Below are positions 42,001 through 48,000 of a stretch of 64,000 nt of DNA, one piece after another. The stretch lies in assembly GCF_041248615.1 (NCBI RefSeq), contig NZ_CP158425.1. One strand, given 5' to 3'. The first letter of the stretch is position 1; each line of letters opens with the position of its first letter. Origin of the DNA: Escherichia coli. GTDB taxonomy: Bacteria; Pseudomonadota; Gammaproteobacteria; Enterobacterales; Enterobacteriaceae. Position numbers: made by a program.

Positions 42001-45000
42001 AGCAGCCGGTTGGCCGACGAAGAGTTCGAGCCAGGCTCGAACTGGCGCAGCCACACAAAACGGGTCACCCGATCATCAGCCGTCTCCTCGAGCAATGCCA
42101 GCAACTGTTCTCGGATCGACATAGGCAGCCGACTGGCGATCCTCGTCTCGATGCGTCGCTCGGCATCGACGAGAGCCGCGGCACAAAGCCGCTCGATCGT
42201 GGATGTCGCGGGAAGGACAGTGCGGGTGCGTCGGCACTCGGCTACGAAGCGACGGGCGATATCCTCGTTCGACACCGCCATCTCGGCTTCTCGGAACAAC
42301 CATTCCTTCAGCTCGCTCGCACCACGTCCGGAGAAGGTGCGGAAGCCGTAGAGCCCCCGTAACTCGGCAAGATGCTCGTGCCGTGTTTCCTCGCGGGCAG
42401 CATAGTCTACGAGATCGTCGGCACCCAGGCCAAGCTGCGCTCCGATAAATTCGATGACCTCTGCAGGGATCAGTTCGCCTGGAGCCAGCACCCGGCCGGG
42501 ATAGCGCAGGACACACAATTGCAGGGCGAAGCCGAACCTGTTGTGAGCGCGCCGACGCAGCCTGATATGCCCAAGGTCTTCATCACTCAGCGTATAGTGC
42601 TTGAGCAAATCCGTCTGTGAAGTCGGCAAGCGCAACAGCGCGTCTTTCTGCCGATCGGTTAGAGTGACGCGACGCGGCATACATGTTCCTTTTTCAAAAT
42701 CTGATAGCGTTCAAGACGCTTTGTTTATGAAGCTGGTTGAGATACATTTCCAGAGGTCAATGCAATCGTGGCCGAAGCGCCGCCTCAAACCAACGTTTGT
42801 GATACATGCTGATCGGATATGCCCGCGTCTCCAAAGCCGATGGCTCGCAGTCTCTCGACCTGCAGCACGACGCCTTGCGCGCCGCAGGTGTCGAACGGGA
42901 CAATATCTATGATGATCTTGCTTCCGGCGGTCGTGATGATCGCCCTGGCTTGACTGCCTGCCTCAAGTCATTGCGTGACGGCGATGTGCTGGTGGTCTGG
43001 AAGCTCGATCGCCTCGGACGATCGCTTGCCCATCTGGTCAACACGGTGAAGGAGCTGTCAGACCGCAAGATCGGCCTGCGGGTTCTGACTGGAAAGGGCG
43101 CTCAGATCGACACCACGACTGCGTCCGGTCGCATGGTGTTCGGAATCTTCGCCACCTTGGCCGAGTTCGAGCGGGATCTGATCCGAGAGCGCACCATGGC
43201 GGGTCTCGCCTCCGCGAGAGCGCGCGGTCGCAAGGGCGGACGAAAATTCGCGCTCACCAAAGCTCAGGTGCGTCTCGCGCAAGCCGCCATGGCCCAGCGC
43301 GATACTTCAGTTTCCGATCTCTGCAAGGAACTCGGCATCGAGCGCGTCACTCTCTACCGATATGTCGGTCCCAAAGGCGAGCTCAGAGACCATGGAAAGC
43401 ATGTTCTCGGACTTACGTAGCAACTCGTTTCTTTTCGCAGGTTGAGCCACAGAGGTGGATCAGGAAATTTGAACAACACTTATAAGTGATATTTTGCTCC
43501 CCAAATGATGTTATAAACATCAATATATGGAGTATTTTATGACACGTAGACCAAGAAGAAATCATTCAAATGACTTTAAAGCTAAGGTAGCACTTGCTGC
43601 GATTAAAGCAGAAAAAACACTTGCTGAATTGAGTGCTGAATTTGATGTTCATCAAAACCAAATTATTGACTGGAAAAATCAACTGATTTCAGCTTCCTCG
43701 CAAGCTTTCGATCAATCAAAAGCTCCAACAGAACCACCCATCGATCTAAAAAAACTACATGCAAAAATCGGTGAGCAGGCATTAGAAATTGATTTTTTAG
43801 AAGGTGTGTTGAAGAAACTGGGTCGCTTCAACCACAAAAGTTAATCGATGACTCACTTCAGATTTCAGTATCTAGGGTCAGGACCCATTGATTTGAACTG
43901 ACGGCTGTGATTCAGATGGGCGTATAGGAGCCCGACTGATGAGTAATTTGTTTTGGCTGACGGACGAGCAAATGGCTCGTCTTCAGCCCTATTTCCCCAA
44001 GAGCCATGGCCGCCAGCGCGTTGATGATCGACGCGTTCTGAGCGGCATCATCTTCGTCAACCGCAACGGGCTGCGTTGGCGTGATGCGCCGAAGGAATAT
44101 GGCCCGGCGAAGACGCTTTATAACCGCTGGAAACGCTGGGGCGACAAGGGCGTATTTATCCAGATGATGGAAGGTCTGGCCGTGCCTGAAGCCGCAGAGC
44201 ACAAGACCATCATGATCGATGCGACCTATCTCAAGGCCCACCGCACGGCTTCCAGCTTGCGGGTAAAAAAGGGGGCGCGGGCCGCCTGATTGGACGCACG
44301 AAAGGCGGCATGAACACCAAGCTTCATGCCGTAACGGATGCGAGTGGTCGCCCGATCAGCTTCTTCATAACGGCAGGCCAGGTCAGCGATTACACCGGTG
44401 CTGCCGCCTTGCTTGATGAACTTCCCAAGGCCAAATGGTTGCTGGCCGACCGTGGCTATGATGCCGACTGGTATCGTGACGCTTTACAGGCGAAGGGGAT
44501 CACTCCCTGCATTCCAGGTCGAAAATCCCGCAAGAAGACCATCAAATACGACAAACGCCGCTACAAACGGCGCAACCGGATCGAGATCATGTTCGGGCGT
44601 CTCAAAGACTGGCGGCGTGTCGCTACGCGTTACGACCGGTGCCCAATGGCCTTTCTCTCCGCCATCGCTCTCGCTGCGACCGTTATCTTCTGGCTATGAG
44701 CAATGAGTCCTGACCCTAGCGCATATCAAGCCAGAGGAGCCTGAGGTACTTGGTCTTTTAGCCCTCATGGAACTCCAGTGCTCTCGGCTGCTTGCCCGAC
44801 AAGATCGTCAAGGCTTGCCAGTGCCGCTCGATCGTCAGGATCGTGGCTTGTGGGATCGATTGCTCATACGTCGAGGTCTGGAGATAGTTGAGCGAGCATG
44901 CCGCATGTCGTCTCCCACTGGATGGTATCTTCTGCAAGCGTTGATTTCTGCTTGTCACGCGCGGGCTGCGAGCTTTCGAGACACCAATTGGCGAGAGATA

Positions 45001-48000
45001 CTGGCGAGATATGACGCGCTCTTCCTGTTGAGCCCTACATACGTAGTTGCCCTCAATCGAGCAGTCGCTGTGTCGTGGGCCATGAACCCCGCTGCAGGGA
45101 TGGCGGTCCTTAAGGCGATTGAGGACGAGTGGGACGTGGAGACCTACCCGCTTTTTCACGCGACGCGGGCGGATTTCCTTTCGCGTCTTGGTTTCCAAGA
45201 CCAAGCTGCGGCAGCCTATCAGGCTGCGGCCGTACTCAGCACCAACCTACCTCAAAAGTTGTTCTTGGTCACGCGCGCTGAGGAATGCCTGGCAGGGTCT
45301 CGGACAGATGTTGGATAACATCAGTCGATTGACGGTGATTGCGCGCACGTGGACGCGCATCATGACAGGTATGACGAGCCTTTGAACGTCCGCTGGCTGT
45401 GCCGGCGCCATCATATCCGGCTGCACTTCTACGGTGAGGACATGTTTCCTATGTGCAGGCCGCATCACGTATGAACGGCGGCTCTCCGGTTATGCCTCAA
45501 CGCCGCTGAAAGCGTCGCGCGGTCAGTCAGCCATGACGATCATACCTTATTCAGATCATGCGATCGGCGCCCTGCCATCAGGAGGATGAAATGCGTAAAG
45601 ATCAGATCCCGGATTTCGTTGATGAGATCTTCGCCACCGGCTGCCCAATCACCGCAGTAGGACAAGATTGCTATGTTTTGCAGAGAGCGATCTGCTGGCA
45701 GAAGACTTCGACCGTGTTGGTGAGGTGGTCGATAAAATCTGCCAGCGATAAGGAAAGCGTGACCATCTGTTGCTGACATCAGAGGTGGCTCGGTTTGTCT
45801 GAACAGTTTTGGGCGTTTTGCTAAGTGGATTTCCGCCTTGATTATGCCGCCACCATCATTGGTGCCAGCGCGTTGAAGTAGGCCTGATCCGGCGTCTGCC
45901 GGTCAAGGGATGAATGTGGACGTCGGCTATTGTAGAAGGCGAGATAGCGGCCGATGCCAGCGCGAGCCTCGGATACGGTCTTGTAGGCGTGGAGATAGAC
46001 CTCTTCGTATTTGATCGACCGCCAGAGCCGCTCGACGAAGACGTTGTCGCGCCACGCGCCCTTGCCATCCATCGAGATGGCGATCTCCGCCTTCTTCAGC
46101 ACGGCTGTGAAGTCGATGGAGGTGAACTGCGAACCCTGATCGGTGTTGAATATTTCAGGCTTTCCATAGCGGGCCAGCGCGTCCTCGACCGCTTCGATGC
46201 AGAAGTCCGCCTCCATCGTGATCGACAGCCGCCAGGACAGAACCCGCCGGCTAAACCAGTCCACGACGGCGCAGAGATAGACGAATCCCCGCGCCATCGG
46301 CACATACGTTATGTCCATTGCCCAGACCTGGTTGGGCCGGGTGACCGCCAGCTTGCGCAGGAGATAAGGATAGATTTTGTGACCTGGCGCTGGTTTGGAG
46401 GTGTTCGGGCGACGGTAGATTGCCTCGATGCCCATCTTCTTCATCAGCGTGGCGACGTGCAACCGCCCGACCTCGGTCCCTTCACCCCTCAAAAGCCCTT
46501 GCAACATCCGACTTCCGGCGAACGGATAGTCGAGGTGCAGTTCGTCGATCCGCCGCATCAGGTCCAGATCGCCGTCGGACACTTGACGTGGAGAATAGTA
46601 GACACTGCCACGGCTGAAGCCGAGAAGCCTGGCCTGACGTGCGACCGACAGTTTGTGTGTTCGGTCGATCATTTCTTTCCGCCCAGCAATCCCGCTTTGC
46701 CGAGCGCTCCGGCTAAAAAATCATTCTCCAATGTCAGTTCGCCTATTTTGGCGTGCAGCGTTTTGACATCGACGGTTGGACCTGCCGGTTCCGCCTTCGC
46801 TTCATCGCCGAAAACGCCTGTCGCCCCATCAAGGAGCTGGTCTTTCCACTGTTTGATCTGGTTGGCATGCACGTCGAACTGCTGGGACAATTCCACCAGC
46901 GTCTGCTCACCTCGGATCGCGGCGAGCGCCACTTTTGCCTTGAAAGCCGGGCTGTGGTTCCGGCGCGGTCGTCTTGTCATGGTATCTCCTGTTCCCGGCA
47001 TCTAAGCCGAAGTCAGGCAGAAATTCCACTTATCACCGCTGTGCAGATTTCCCGAGCCACCTCTATCGTCGATCATTTGAGGAGCCTCGGCCGTTTCTAC
47101 GACCTGCGGCTTGAGACACTCCAATAGCGACTATGGGTCGGTCCGCGCTTTAGAATAAGGGATCTAGACCCTGTCGCCAATTTTGGCCTGACGGGGGTTT
47201 CCAGCTACGCCTTCATATGTCGTGCCTCAGCCGCGCTGCAAGCGCCGGGCACTGATGCCCAGCATGCTGGTGGTCTTCACCTTTCCGCCGACGCGCCTGA
47301 GGATGATGATTGCCGCGTCCGTGGCCAGCCCGGTGCCGATGGCAGCCAAATGACCCAATTGGAACGGCAGATAGCCCGGCTTGACCACGAGAAGCACTCC
47401 GATGAAGCCGATGACCACGGCGGTCCACCGCCGAACCGCGATGCTGAAGCCACAAATCGAGCTTTGCGAGGAGTTTCTTTATCCGTCTCAATGAGATAAG
47501 GGCCAACTTTAGATCAAGTGCGTCGTAGTACGGCGTGCACCTTGGGCTTGATCCAGCTATAGTGTAATTGTATGCTGGAAATATGTGCAACCCTGGTGTC
47601 TAGGCCGTGCGAAGCCAATCAGGCTCGAAAGTCGTTGCGGGTTGTTATCCGTTAAAGGCGGCGACTGTAGCCGCCGCTATTTGGCCCCTTGATACCATTT
47701 AGCATTTGGAGCTTTAGGTTCTATAATTTAACGTTACGCTACAGCCGACACCCCGCTTGCCTGAGCGTTTGGATTTCAATCACTTAGTAGACCAACTTGC
47801 GGGTCGACGGTTCGTGTCCCTTCAAGGCGGAGGCTTCGGCAGCTGGCGTCTCTATGCCGCGGTGGTGCTTTTCCGAAACGGAAGTCGCCCATTCGCGTCA
47901 CGTAAACCGACCGTCAGGCGGTACGGCTTAGGAGAATAATCGCAAAGCAGACTGAGACCACCACCCTCGCGCTACCCTTTGCGCAGGCGTCGAAGGCGAT

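What the first reader, a model, noticed from the sequence alone, without database searches (positions are those of the whole stretch)
43421..47054. Nested IS insertions with a shared terminal sequence
After the second tnpR the strA-upstream sequence continues for 30 bp and is then replaced by an AT-rich IS3-family element that begins AGAGGTGGATCAGG. That element retains only orfA because an IS5-family element (43873..44718, flanked by CTAG) has landed in it. A separate complete IS3-family element at 45781..47054 begins with the related AGAGGTGGCTCGG. An IS3-family element therefore inserted at the same relative position where IS1133 sits in the other copy.
Basis: seen in the sequence. Interest (0 to 1): 0.35.

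Follow-up and report, generated by a model that had tools for sequence, protein, structure and literature searches.

The report
Known insertion sequences in a resistance mosaic
This stretch is an ordinary patchwork of three already-named jumping genes (an ISAba14-like remnant, ISKpn12 and ISKpn11) joining a broken streptomycin-resistance transposon to a gentamicin-resistance module, and identical copies are already annotated on E. coli and Salmonella plasmids.

Summary

- **43451-43874:** the first 424 nt (left inverted repeat plus complete orfA) of a 1282-bp ISAba14-like IS3-family element. It inserted in Tn5393 30 bp after tnpR, with a CAC duplication.
- **43873-44718:** ISKpn12, IS5 family.
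- **45781-47064:** ISKpn11, IS3 family, 1284 bp. It has an ATC duplication, and plasmid pHHV35 carries the empty site.

The two AGAGGTGG ends are true IS termini. The two elements are relatives: OrfA 61% and OrfB 60% identical.

ISKpn12 is not simply nested here. Its right flank is a truncated sigma-factor gene of the aac(3)-IIe module, not the rest of the IS. True nesting is seen in pHHV35 (Tn5393g), where an ISKpn12-bounded aac(3)-IIe segment sits at a TA 239 bp further into the same IS. Both junction sites read ATCTAAG.

IS1133 in the other Tn5393 copy sits at the tnpR stop codon, 30 bp upstream of the ISAba14-like site, so the positions differ.

The exact window junction occurs in 15 PLSDB plasmids, all E. 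coli or Salmonella, and is annotated by PGAP. This is a known, low-interest mosaic.

The parts
42806..43420 (+). Tn5393 tnpR (resolvase), second copy in the window
   Evidence: 204-aa ORF. PGAP annotates it as a recombinase family protein in identical records. 43075-43420 is identical to 34260-34605.
43421..43450 (+). First 30 bp of the Tn5393 tnpR-strA spacer. The last 3 bp, CAC (43448-43450), are the left copy of the target duplication of the ISAba14-like element.
   Evidence: Identical to 35841-35870. The intact element in CP133713 and the halves in pHHV35 are flanked by CAC...CAC, and the uninterrupted site gagCCACctccgcg is at 35866-35879.
43451..43874 (+). Truncated ISAba14-like IS3-family element: nt 1-424 of 1282. 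Contains the left inverted repeat, complete orfA (43539-43844) and a T TTT TTA slippery motif (43793-43799).
   Evidence: 100% identical to nt 1-424 of the intact element. 96.7% identical to copies PGAP labels ISAba14. OrfA matches HTH_Tnp_1 weakly (22.2 bits, below the 24.1 cutoff). Other insertion contexts of this IS begin matching at 43448-43449. PGAP annotates it as a partial transposase missing the C-terminus.
43873..44718 (+). ISKpn12 (IS5 family). Core 43875-44716 with TA on each side. Inverted repeats lie within 43872-43890 and 44701-44719. orf1 is 43939-44289 and orf2 is 44310-44699. A AAA AAG frameshift motif at 44265-44271.
   Evidence: PGAP name and 'programmed frameshift' note. 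DUF4096 (7e-23) and DDE_Tnp_1 (7e-19) domains. Inverted repeats. 846 bp are 100% identical to both pHHV35 copies. TA is the only constant flank across four contexts.
44719..45780 (+). GC-rich segment of the aac(3)-IIe module: a 5'-truncated DUF6596/ECF sigma-factor gene (44725-45318) and a small hypothetical ORF (45591-45776).
   Evidence: DUF6596 matches profile positions 46-101 of 102 starting at residue 3, so the gene has lost its 5' part. Annotated as 'ecf' in pHHV35. Travels with ISKpn12 in Klebsiella, E. coli and Acinetobacter records.
45781..47064 (-). ISKpn11 (IS3 family), complete, 1284 bp. orfAB is 45842-46980 on the minus strand (orfA stop at 46669, orfB ATG at 46672). T TTT TTA motif at 46720-46714. 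Inverted repeats 45781-45806 and 47039-47064. Target duplication ATC at 45778-45780 and 47065-47067.
   Evidence: PGAP name and programmed frameshift. rve domain 3e-26 and HTH_Tnp_1 25.7 bits. Inverted repeats 26 nt, 81%. pHHV35 carries the uninterrupted site gacATCgtcg and a second ISKpn11 copy elsewhere flanked by ACC.
47065..49428 (-). Remainder of the aac(3)-IIe module: tmrB-like AAA ATPase gene (48000-48542) and aac(3)-IIe (48555-49415). Similarity to pHHV35 ends at 49428, before blaTEM-1.
   Evidence: 99.96% identical to pHHV35 L001 8718-11081. Annotations.
34606..35837 (+). IS1133 in the first, IS26-truncated Tn5393 copy (comparison element). Target duplication TAG at 34603-34605 (the tnpR stop codon) and 35838-35840.
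   Evidence: Sequence. PGAP names it 'IS3-like element IS1133 family transposase'. Its termini TGGACTTGC... are unrelated to AGAGGTGG.

Best explanation
The region is a junction inside a multiresistance mosaic of a large IncHI2-type E. coli/Salmonella plasmid, built from three known insertion sequences.

1. Shown: an Acinetobacter-type, 1282-bp ISAba14-like IS3-family element inserted into the 65-bp tnpR-strA spacer of Tn5393, 30 bp after tnpR, duplicating CAC.
2. Shown in pHHV35 (Tn5393g): a segment bounded by two direct ISKpn12 copies, carrying the truncated ecf gene, tmrB and aac(3)-IIe, inserted into orfB of that IS at the TA at nt 662/663.
3. Inferred: in the lineage of this window the left end of ISKpn12 came to lie at the TA at nt 423/424, leaving 239 bp less of the IS. 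That site has the same ATCTAAG sequence. The most likely cause is an ISKpn12-directed local event (adjacent deletion or a local hop) in a Tn5393g-like ancestor.
4. Inferred: everything to the right (the second ISKpn12, the right part of the IS, strAB and the right end of Tn5393) was then lost and replaced beyond aac(3)-IIe by blaTEM-1 sequence.
5. Shown: ISKpn11 is a separate simple insertion inside the aac(3)-IIe module (ATC duplication).

The two IS3-family elements share AGAGGTGG termini because they are homologues, not because of any interaction. The ISAba14-like remnant has one inverted repeat and no orfB, so it cannot move. ISKpn12 and ISKpn11 look intact.
For: - **Identity of the elements:** 100% matches with PGAP names ISKpn11 and ISKpn12. 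The ISAba14-like remnant is 100% identical to the intact copy between tnpR and strA in A. baumannii CP133713 and 96.7% identical to named ISAba14.
- **Termini:** CAC, ATC and ACC 3-bp duplications plus empty sites.
- **Homology of the two IS3 elements:** OrfA 61% and OrfB 60% identity, aligned inverted repeats.
- **pHHV35 structure:** both halves of the IS abut the ISKpn12 copies at a single TA (aaatcTA|...|TAagtc, versus aaatctaagtc in the intact element). This structure is named Tn5393g (PMC10333595).
- **Spread of the tnpR-to-IS junction:** 39 PLSDB records, mostly Acinetobacter with the intact IS.
- **Window-type ISKpn12 junction:** 15 records, all E. coli or Salmonella, and 5 of 5426 complete E. 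coli genomes. The pHHV35-type junction is in 2 records.
- **Target sites:** ATCTAAG occurs only twice in the first 663 nt of the IS, and both sites are ISKpn12 junctions. A different IS5-family element, ISPst8, sits as a simple TA-duplicating insertion at exactly the same TA 423/424 of an ISAba14 copy in P. aeruginosa pPA272. That TA is therefore a preferred target for this kind of IS.
Against: - The order of events is inferred from present-day structures only.
- pHHV35 carries ISKpn11 at a different site (ACC) from the window (ATC). The window's module resembles the version widespread in Klebsiella and E. coli, so recombination between lineages is needed under any scenario.
- The 239-bp loss is equally explained by slippage between the 5-bp ATCTA repeats, with no transposase involved.
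- No ISfinder reference sequences were available, so the element names rest on PGAP labels in public records.
Confidence: 0.75

Rival explanations
1. Independent insertion plus homologous recombination. A lone ISKpn12 inserted at TA 423/424 of the ISAba14-like element in a Tn5393 copy. Recombination between that ISKpn12 and the one at the edge of the widespread enterobacterial aac(3)-IIe module then joined the two regions and discarded the right part of the IS.
For: - The window's module has ISKpn11 at the ATC site, as in the Klebsiella/E. coli version and unlike pHHV35.
- TA 423/424 is demonstrably a target for this kind of IS, as shown by the ISPst8 simple insertion.
- ISKpn12 always carries the truncated ecf gene on its right while its left flank varies.
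Against: The predicted intermediate (ISKpn12 right end joined to IS nt 425 onward) was not found in 72,556 plasmids or in the 100,044-species genome collection. It also requires two separate ISKpn12 hits in the same 1.3-kb IS.
Confidence: 0.2
2. One reading: ISKpn12 alone landed in the IS3-family element as a simple nested insertion flanked by a duplicated CTAG.
For: ISKpn12 abuts the IS remnant, and CTAG is present at both ends.
Against: - The right flank is a truncated DUF6596/ecf gene at about 58% GC, not IS nt 425 onward.
- No other part of the IS is in the window.
- Other ISKpn12 copies are flanked by TTAG...CTAA or CTAG...CTAG, so only TA is constant.
- In the intact IS the site reads CTAA, not CTAG.
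Confidence: 0.03
3. The shared AGAGGTGG sequences are chance similarity or internal sequence rather than IS termini.
For: They lack the 5'-TG...CA-3' tips typical of IS3-family elements. One further match at 24780 is a chance hit in a hydrolase gene.
Against: - There are 3-bp duplications directly outside AGAGG...CCTCT at three independent insertions (CAC, ATC, ACC), with empty sites for two of them.
- Matches in dozens of unrelated contexts start within 2-3 bp of 43451.
- The motif count is 4 against 0.13 expected.
Confidence: 0.01

Closest known systems
Tn5393g of plasmid pHHV35 (FJ012882; Heuer et al. 2009, named by Cain and Hall 2011, as cited in PMC10333595)
   Same: Tn5393 tnpA-tnpR, 30-bp spacer, the ISAba14-like left end, ISKpn12, truncated ecf, tmrB and aac(3)-IIe are 99.9-100% identical.
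   Different: pHHV35 keeps 239 more bp of the IS left of ISKpn12, a second ISKpn12, the right 620 nt of the IS, strAB, and ISKpn11 at another site. The window lacks all of these, has ISKpn11 at the ATC site, and continues into blaTEM-1 after 49428.
ISAba14 (IS3 family, Acinetobacter)
   Same: 96.7% nucleotide identity over the 421-nt remnant to copies PGAP labels ISAba14. Same termini and organisation.
   Different: The exact variant here is labelled only 'IS3 family transposase' by PGAP. Its right part is mostly 90-95% identical to the common ISAba14 copies, so it may count as a distinct isoform or element. No ISfinder comparison was possible.
ISKpn11 and ISKpn12 in the aac(3)-IIe (aacC2) context of Klebsiella, E. 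coli and Acinetobacter plasmids
   Same: Window 43872-47070 is 99.9% identical in many plasmids, with the same ISKpn12, truncated ecf, ORF and ISKpn11 order. The pair is mentioned in PMC4993456 and PMC7843963.
   Different: In those records the left flank of ISKpn12 is an HTH-regulator/umuDC-like region rather than the ISAba14-like remnant.
Tn5393 with IS1133 (Chiou and Jones 1993)
   Same: An IS3-family element sits in the short tnpR-strA spacer. It is present as the other copy in this window.
   Different: IS1133 sits at the tnpR stop codon (TAG duplication), 30 bp upstream. It has TGGACTTGC termini and only 49% global nucleotide identity to the ISAba14-like element.

Membership tests
IS3 family (ISKpn11, 45781-47064) | Two consecutive, partly overlapping ORFs (orfA, orfB) joined by a -1 programmed frameshift | tested here: met
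   orfA 46669-47001 and orfB 45842-46672 overlap on the minus strand. A T TTT TTA motif is in orfA. PGAP notes a 'programmed frameshift'.
IS3 family (ISKpn11, 45781-47064) | OrfB with a DDE / retroviral-integrase-type catalytic core, and OrfA with a helix-turn-helix | tested here: met
   rve 3e-26, rve_3 4e-14 and HTH_21 1e-10 in OrfB. HTH_Tnp_1 scores 25.7 bits (cutoff 24.1) in OrfA.
IS3 family (ISKpn11, 45781-47064) | Terminal inverted repeats and a 3-5 bp target duplication | tested here: met
   Inverted repeats of 26 nt at 81%. ATC duplication with an empty site in pHHV35, and a second copy flanked by ACC.
IS3 family (ISKpn11 and the ISAba14-like element) | Terminal 5'-TG...CA-3' dinucleotides. 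This is typical of most members and is not a strict criterion. | tested here: not met
   The ends are AGAGG...CCTCT in both elements. IS1133 in the same window has TG...CA. This is treated as a subgroup peculiarity, since all other family criteria are met.
IS3 family (ISAba14-like remnant, 43451-43874) | Homology to a complete IS3-family element with orfA/orfB, inverted repeats and a 3-bp duplication | tested here: met
   100% identical to nt 1-424 of the intact 1282-bp copy flanked by CAC. OrfA is 61% and OrfB 60% identical to ISKpn11. OrfA alone is below the Pfam cutoff (22.2 bits against 24.1).
ISAba14 (same element by the ISfinder criterion, recalled as at least 95% nucleotide identity) | At least 95% nucleotide identity to the reference over the whole element | tested here: inconclusive
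   96.7% over the first 421 nt to PGAP-labelled ISAba14, but the right part is mostly 90-95% identical. No ISfinder reference was available.
IS5 family (ISKpn12, 43873-44718) | DDE_Tnp_1-type transposase, here split in two ORFs with a frameshift | tested here: met
   DUF4096 7e-23 and DDE_Tnp_1 7e-19. A AAA AAG at 44265-44271. PGAP notes a 'programmed frameshift'.
IS5 family (ISKpn12, 43873-44718) | Terminal inverted repeats and a short target duplication (TA) | tested here: inconclusive
   Inverted repeats are present. In the window the two flanks are unrelated sequences, so a duplication cannot be shown. In pHHV35 the ISKpn12-bounded segment is flanked by TA within a contiguous target, but that junction could also be read as no duplication if the IS includes A...T.
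Tn5393g | Complete Tn5393 with the ISKpn12-bounded aac(3)-IIe segment inside the IS upstream of strAB, bounded by both 81-bp Tn5393 inverted repeats | tested here: not met
   The second ISKpn12, the right part of the IS, and the strAB genes and right inverted repeat that would follow it are absent from this copy. The window holds a Tn5393g-related remnant, not Tn5393g.

The most novel reading that the evidence does not exclude
The ATCTAAG sites of ISAba14-type elements may be recurrent, sequence-specific targets for IS427-like IS5-family elements. Three events support this: ISKpn12 at two sites and ISPst8 at one. ISKpn12 may also generate targeted adjacent deletions that remodel resistance regions. 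If so, the 239-bp difference from Tn5393g would be a footprint of that activity rather than of slippage or recombination.
Probability: 0.3. Interest if true: 0.2.

Novelty: already known. Interest (0 to 1): 0.08.

Why it matters
It matters little beyond correct annotation. The result documents how a Tn5393 variant assembled in Acinetobacter (Tn5393g-like, carrying aac(3)-IIe) contributed a fragment to IncHI2-type multiresistance plasmids of E. coli and Salmonella. It also corrects the element boundaries. The inert ISAba14-like remnant is a useful lineage marker for tracing that transfer.

Tried and rejected
1. **Do the inner flanks of the two pHHV35 ISKpn12 copies form one ecf gene?** I joined and translated them. 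A stop codon lies 28 codons upstream and nothing resembles a sigma factor, so the idea was rejected.
2. **Search for the reciprocal junction** (ISKpn12 right end joined to IS nt 425) that independent insertion predicts. None was found in PLSDB or genome contigs.
3. **Promoter and terminator scan of 43380-44000.** No promoter-like site was found and nothing was informative.
4. **A. baumannii CP076808 (H18)** looked like a third junction type. It turned out to be the common umuDC-flanked module, with an unrelated IS fragment joined by the hit-merging step.
5. **The fourth AGAGGTGG-like match at 24780** is inside an alpha/beta-hydrolase gene next to an integrase gene, so it is a chance match.
6. 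**Transposase-mediated adjacent deletion versus ATCTA slippage.** Site counts could not separate them: 5 CTAA sites, 3 ATCTA sites and 2 ATCTAAG sites.

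
Full report
**What is at 43421-47064**

Reading the sequence and listing ORFs confirmed the described layout. tnpR ends at 43420. A 30-bp stretch follows. An AT-rich element starts at 43451 with AGAGGTGGATCAGG and has one intact small ORF (43539-43844). A GC-rich element with two ORFs lies at 43873-44718. About 1 kb of GC-rich sequence comes next, then an element with orfA/orfB on the minus strand that starts at 45781 with AGAGGTGGCTCGG.

The repeat search gave inverted repeats at 45781-45806 and 47039-47064, and at 43872-43890 and 44701-44719. The last element therefore ends at 47064, not 47054.

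The motif AGAGGTGGNTCNGG with up to 1 mismatch occurs 4 times against 0.13 expected. Three occurrences are IS ends. The fourth (24780) is inside an alpha/beta-hydrolase gene next to an integrase gene and is a chance match.

**Identity of the elements**

A megablast of 43300-47200 against PLSDB found 100% full-length matches on large E. coli and Salmonella plasmids. One of them, p14408_M1, is typed IncHI2A. PGAP annotates an 'IS5-like element ISKpn12 family transposase', a DUF6596 protein and an 'IS3-like element ISKpn11 family transposase'. The RefSeq annotation of an identical record also marks the AT-rich ORF as a partial transposase lacking its C-terminus, and marks both other transposases as having programmed frameshifts.

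Pfam results agree:

| ORF | Pfam match |
|---|---|
| ISKpn11 OrfB | rve, 3e-26 |
| ISKpn11 OrfA | HTH_Tnp_1, 25.7 bits (cutoff 24.1) |
| AT-rich element OrfA | HTH_Tnp_1, 22.2 bits (just below cutoff) |
| ISKpn12 orf1 | DUF4096, 7e-23 |
| ISKpn12 orf2 | DDE_Tnp_1, 7e-19 |
| ORF after ISKpn12 | C-terminal half of DUF6596 only, so a 5'-truncated ECF-type sigma-factor gene |

The AT-rich remnant matches Acinetobacter plasmids. It is 100% identical to an unnamed 'IS3 family transposase' element and 96.7% identical to copies labelled ISAba14.

**Termini proven by duplications and empty sites**

- **ISAba14-like element.** In A. baumannii CP133713 the intact 1282-bp element sits between Tn5393 tnpR and strA, flanked by CAC on both sides. 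The uninterrupted target gagCCACctccgcg is present in the window's other Tn5393 copy at 35866-35879.
- **ISKpn11.** It is flanked by ATC at 45778-45780 and 47065-47067. Plasmid pHHV35 carries the uninterrupted site gacATCgtcg, plus its own ISKpn11 copy elsewhere flanked by ACC.
- **Independent contexts.** Matches of the ISAba14-like element in dozens of unrelated contexts begin within 2-3 bp of 43451.

**Why the termini are shared**

The two elements are homologues. OrfA is 61% identical, OrfB is 60% identical, and overall nucleotide identity is 58%. All four ends align as AGAGGTGG..TC....T.TG.ACA....TAAGTG. Both carry T TTT TTA at the equivalent Asp-Phe-Leu codons of orfA. GC content is 38% for the ISAba14-like element and 58% for ISKpn11, which points to different host histories.

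ISKpn12 is 100% identical on an Agrobacterium plasmid. There are also many 80-90% hits in Rhizobium, Sinorhizobium and Agrobacterium. These suggest an alphaproteobacterial source for the GC-rich elements; this is inference.

**Is ISKpn12 nested in the IS3 remnant?**

Not in the simple sense. To the right of ISKpn12 lies the truncated ecf gene, not nt 425 onward of the IS, and no other piece of the IS is in the window.

pHHV35 shows the informative structure. It is a low-GC plasmid of the Acinetobacter-associated group (PMC7031236), and its Tn5393 variant is named Tn5393g (PMC10333595). Its order is:

1. tnpR
2. 30-bp spacer
3. IS nt 1-663
4. ISKpn12
5. truncated ecf
6. tmrB and aac(3)-IIe
7. 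ISKpn11
8. ISKpn12
9. IS nt 662-1282
10. strAB

The two halves meet at a single TA: aaatcTA|...|TAagtc, against aaatctaagtc in the intact element. That is a true insertion of an ISKpn12-bounded segment into orfB of the IS.

In the window the ISKpn12 left end instead abuts TA 423/424, 239 bp earlier. ATCTAAG occurs only at these two positions in the first 663 nt of the IS.

A different IS5-family element, ISPst8, is a simple TA-duplicating insertion at exactly TA 423/424 of an ISAba14 copy in P. aeruginosa pPA272. That site is therefore a preferred target for this kind of IS.

Junction counts:

| Junction | Records |
|---|---|
| Window-type ISKpn12 junction | 15 PLSDB records, all E. coli or Salmonella; 5 of 5426 complete E. 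coli genomes |
| pHHV35-type ISKpn12 junction | 2 PLSDB records |
| tnpR to ISAba14-like junction | 39 PLSDB records, mostly Acinetobacter with the intact IS |

**Most likely history**

The ISAba14-like element entered the Tn5393 tnpR-strA spacer in Acinetobacter. The ISKpn12-bounded aac(3)-IIe segment then landed in it, giving Tn5393g.

An ISKpn12-directed local event, or slippage between ATCTA repeats, later moved the junction to TA 423/424. The right-hand part was lost when the fragment became part of the enterobacterial mosaic.

The alternative is an independent ISKpn12 insertion at 423/424 followed by ISKpn12-ISKpn12 recombination with the enterobacterial aac(3)-IIe module. The different ISKpn11 site in pHHV35 favours this alternative. 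The absence of the reciprocal junction in PLSDB and in the genome collection counts against it. I cannot discriminate these further.

**IS1133 comparison**

The window's first Tn5393 copy is truncated in tnpR just downstream of an IS26 copy (IS26 annotated in the identical record; the tnpR match starts at 34260). In it, IS1133 occupies 34606-35837 and duplicates TAG, the tnpR stop codon.

The ISAba14-like element inserted 30 bp further along the 65-bp spacer. IS1133 has canonical TGGACTTGC...CA-type termini and is only 49% identical at the nucleotide level. The two elements are in the same short spacer but not at the same position.

Insertions there are reported to raise strAB expression (PMC10333595). 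This may explain recurrent IS capture at that location. It is irrelevant in this copy, which no longer has strAB downstream.

**Verdict**

All elements are named, and the exact arrangement is already present and annotated in public records. This is an ordinary resistance-region mosaic of low interest.

Noticed in passing
L005 (P. aeruginosa pPA272, NZ_CP129405.1) 1590-2502: ISPst8, an IS5-family element, is inserted with a TA duplication at exactly the same TA (nt 423/424) of an ISAba14 copy as the ISKpn12 junction in the window, and next to aac(3)-IId. This suggests a recurrent target site. It also shows that related IS3 elements (ISAba14 and ISKpn11) accompany the related genes aac(3)-IId and aac(3)-IIe.
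   Followed up: partly
window 37571-37651 and 39762-39842: Two 81-bp Tn5393 terminal inverted repeats (95% identical, in inverted orientation) lie 2.1 kb apart. They bracket aph(3')-Ia and a C45-peptidase gene. The first Tn5393 remnant therefore ends, and the second begins, within about 2 kb.
   Followed up: no
records NZ_CP026933.2 and NZ_MT929287.1 (hits H8, H10): In these otherwise identical plasmids the matched region is about 2.27 kb longer. A group II intron reverse transcriptase (ltrA) is annotated where ISKpn11 would be, so a group II intron appears to have inserted in or beside ISKpn11.
   Followed up: no
window 24780-24793: AGAGATGGCTCGGG resembles the IS termini but lies inside an alpha/beta-hydrolase ORF (23909-24988) next to a tyrosine-recombinase/integrase gene (22966-23979). 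It is a chance match.
   Followed up: yes
hit H108 (Agrobacterium tumefaciens plasmid CP039913.1); organism counts: The ISKpn12 end is 100% identical on an Agrobacterium plasmid, and many Rhizobium, Sinorhizobium and Agrobacterium plasmids match the region at 80-90%. This hints that ISKpn11, ISKpn12 and the GC-rich ecf segment come from Alphaproteobacteria.
   Followed up: no
window 49428-50352: Similarity to pHHV35 stops 13 bp beyond the aac(3)-IIe start codon and blaTEM-1 follows directly. The same aac(3)-IIe to TEM adjacency is seen in E. coli ATCC BAA-196 (TEM-10).
   Followed up: no
window 40375-40466 and 16520-16611: A 94-bp stretch of the Tn5393 tnpA is 86% identical to a sequence at 16520-16611, inside the 606-aa minus-strand ORF at 15889-17709. 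This may be a second Tn3-family transposase gene in the window.
   Followed up: no
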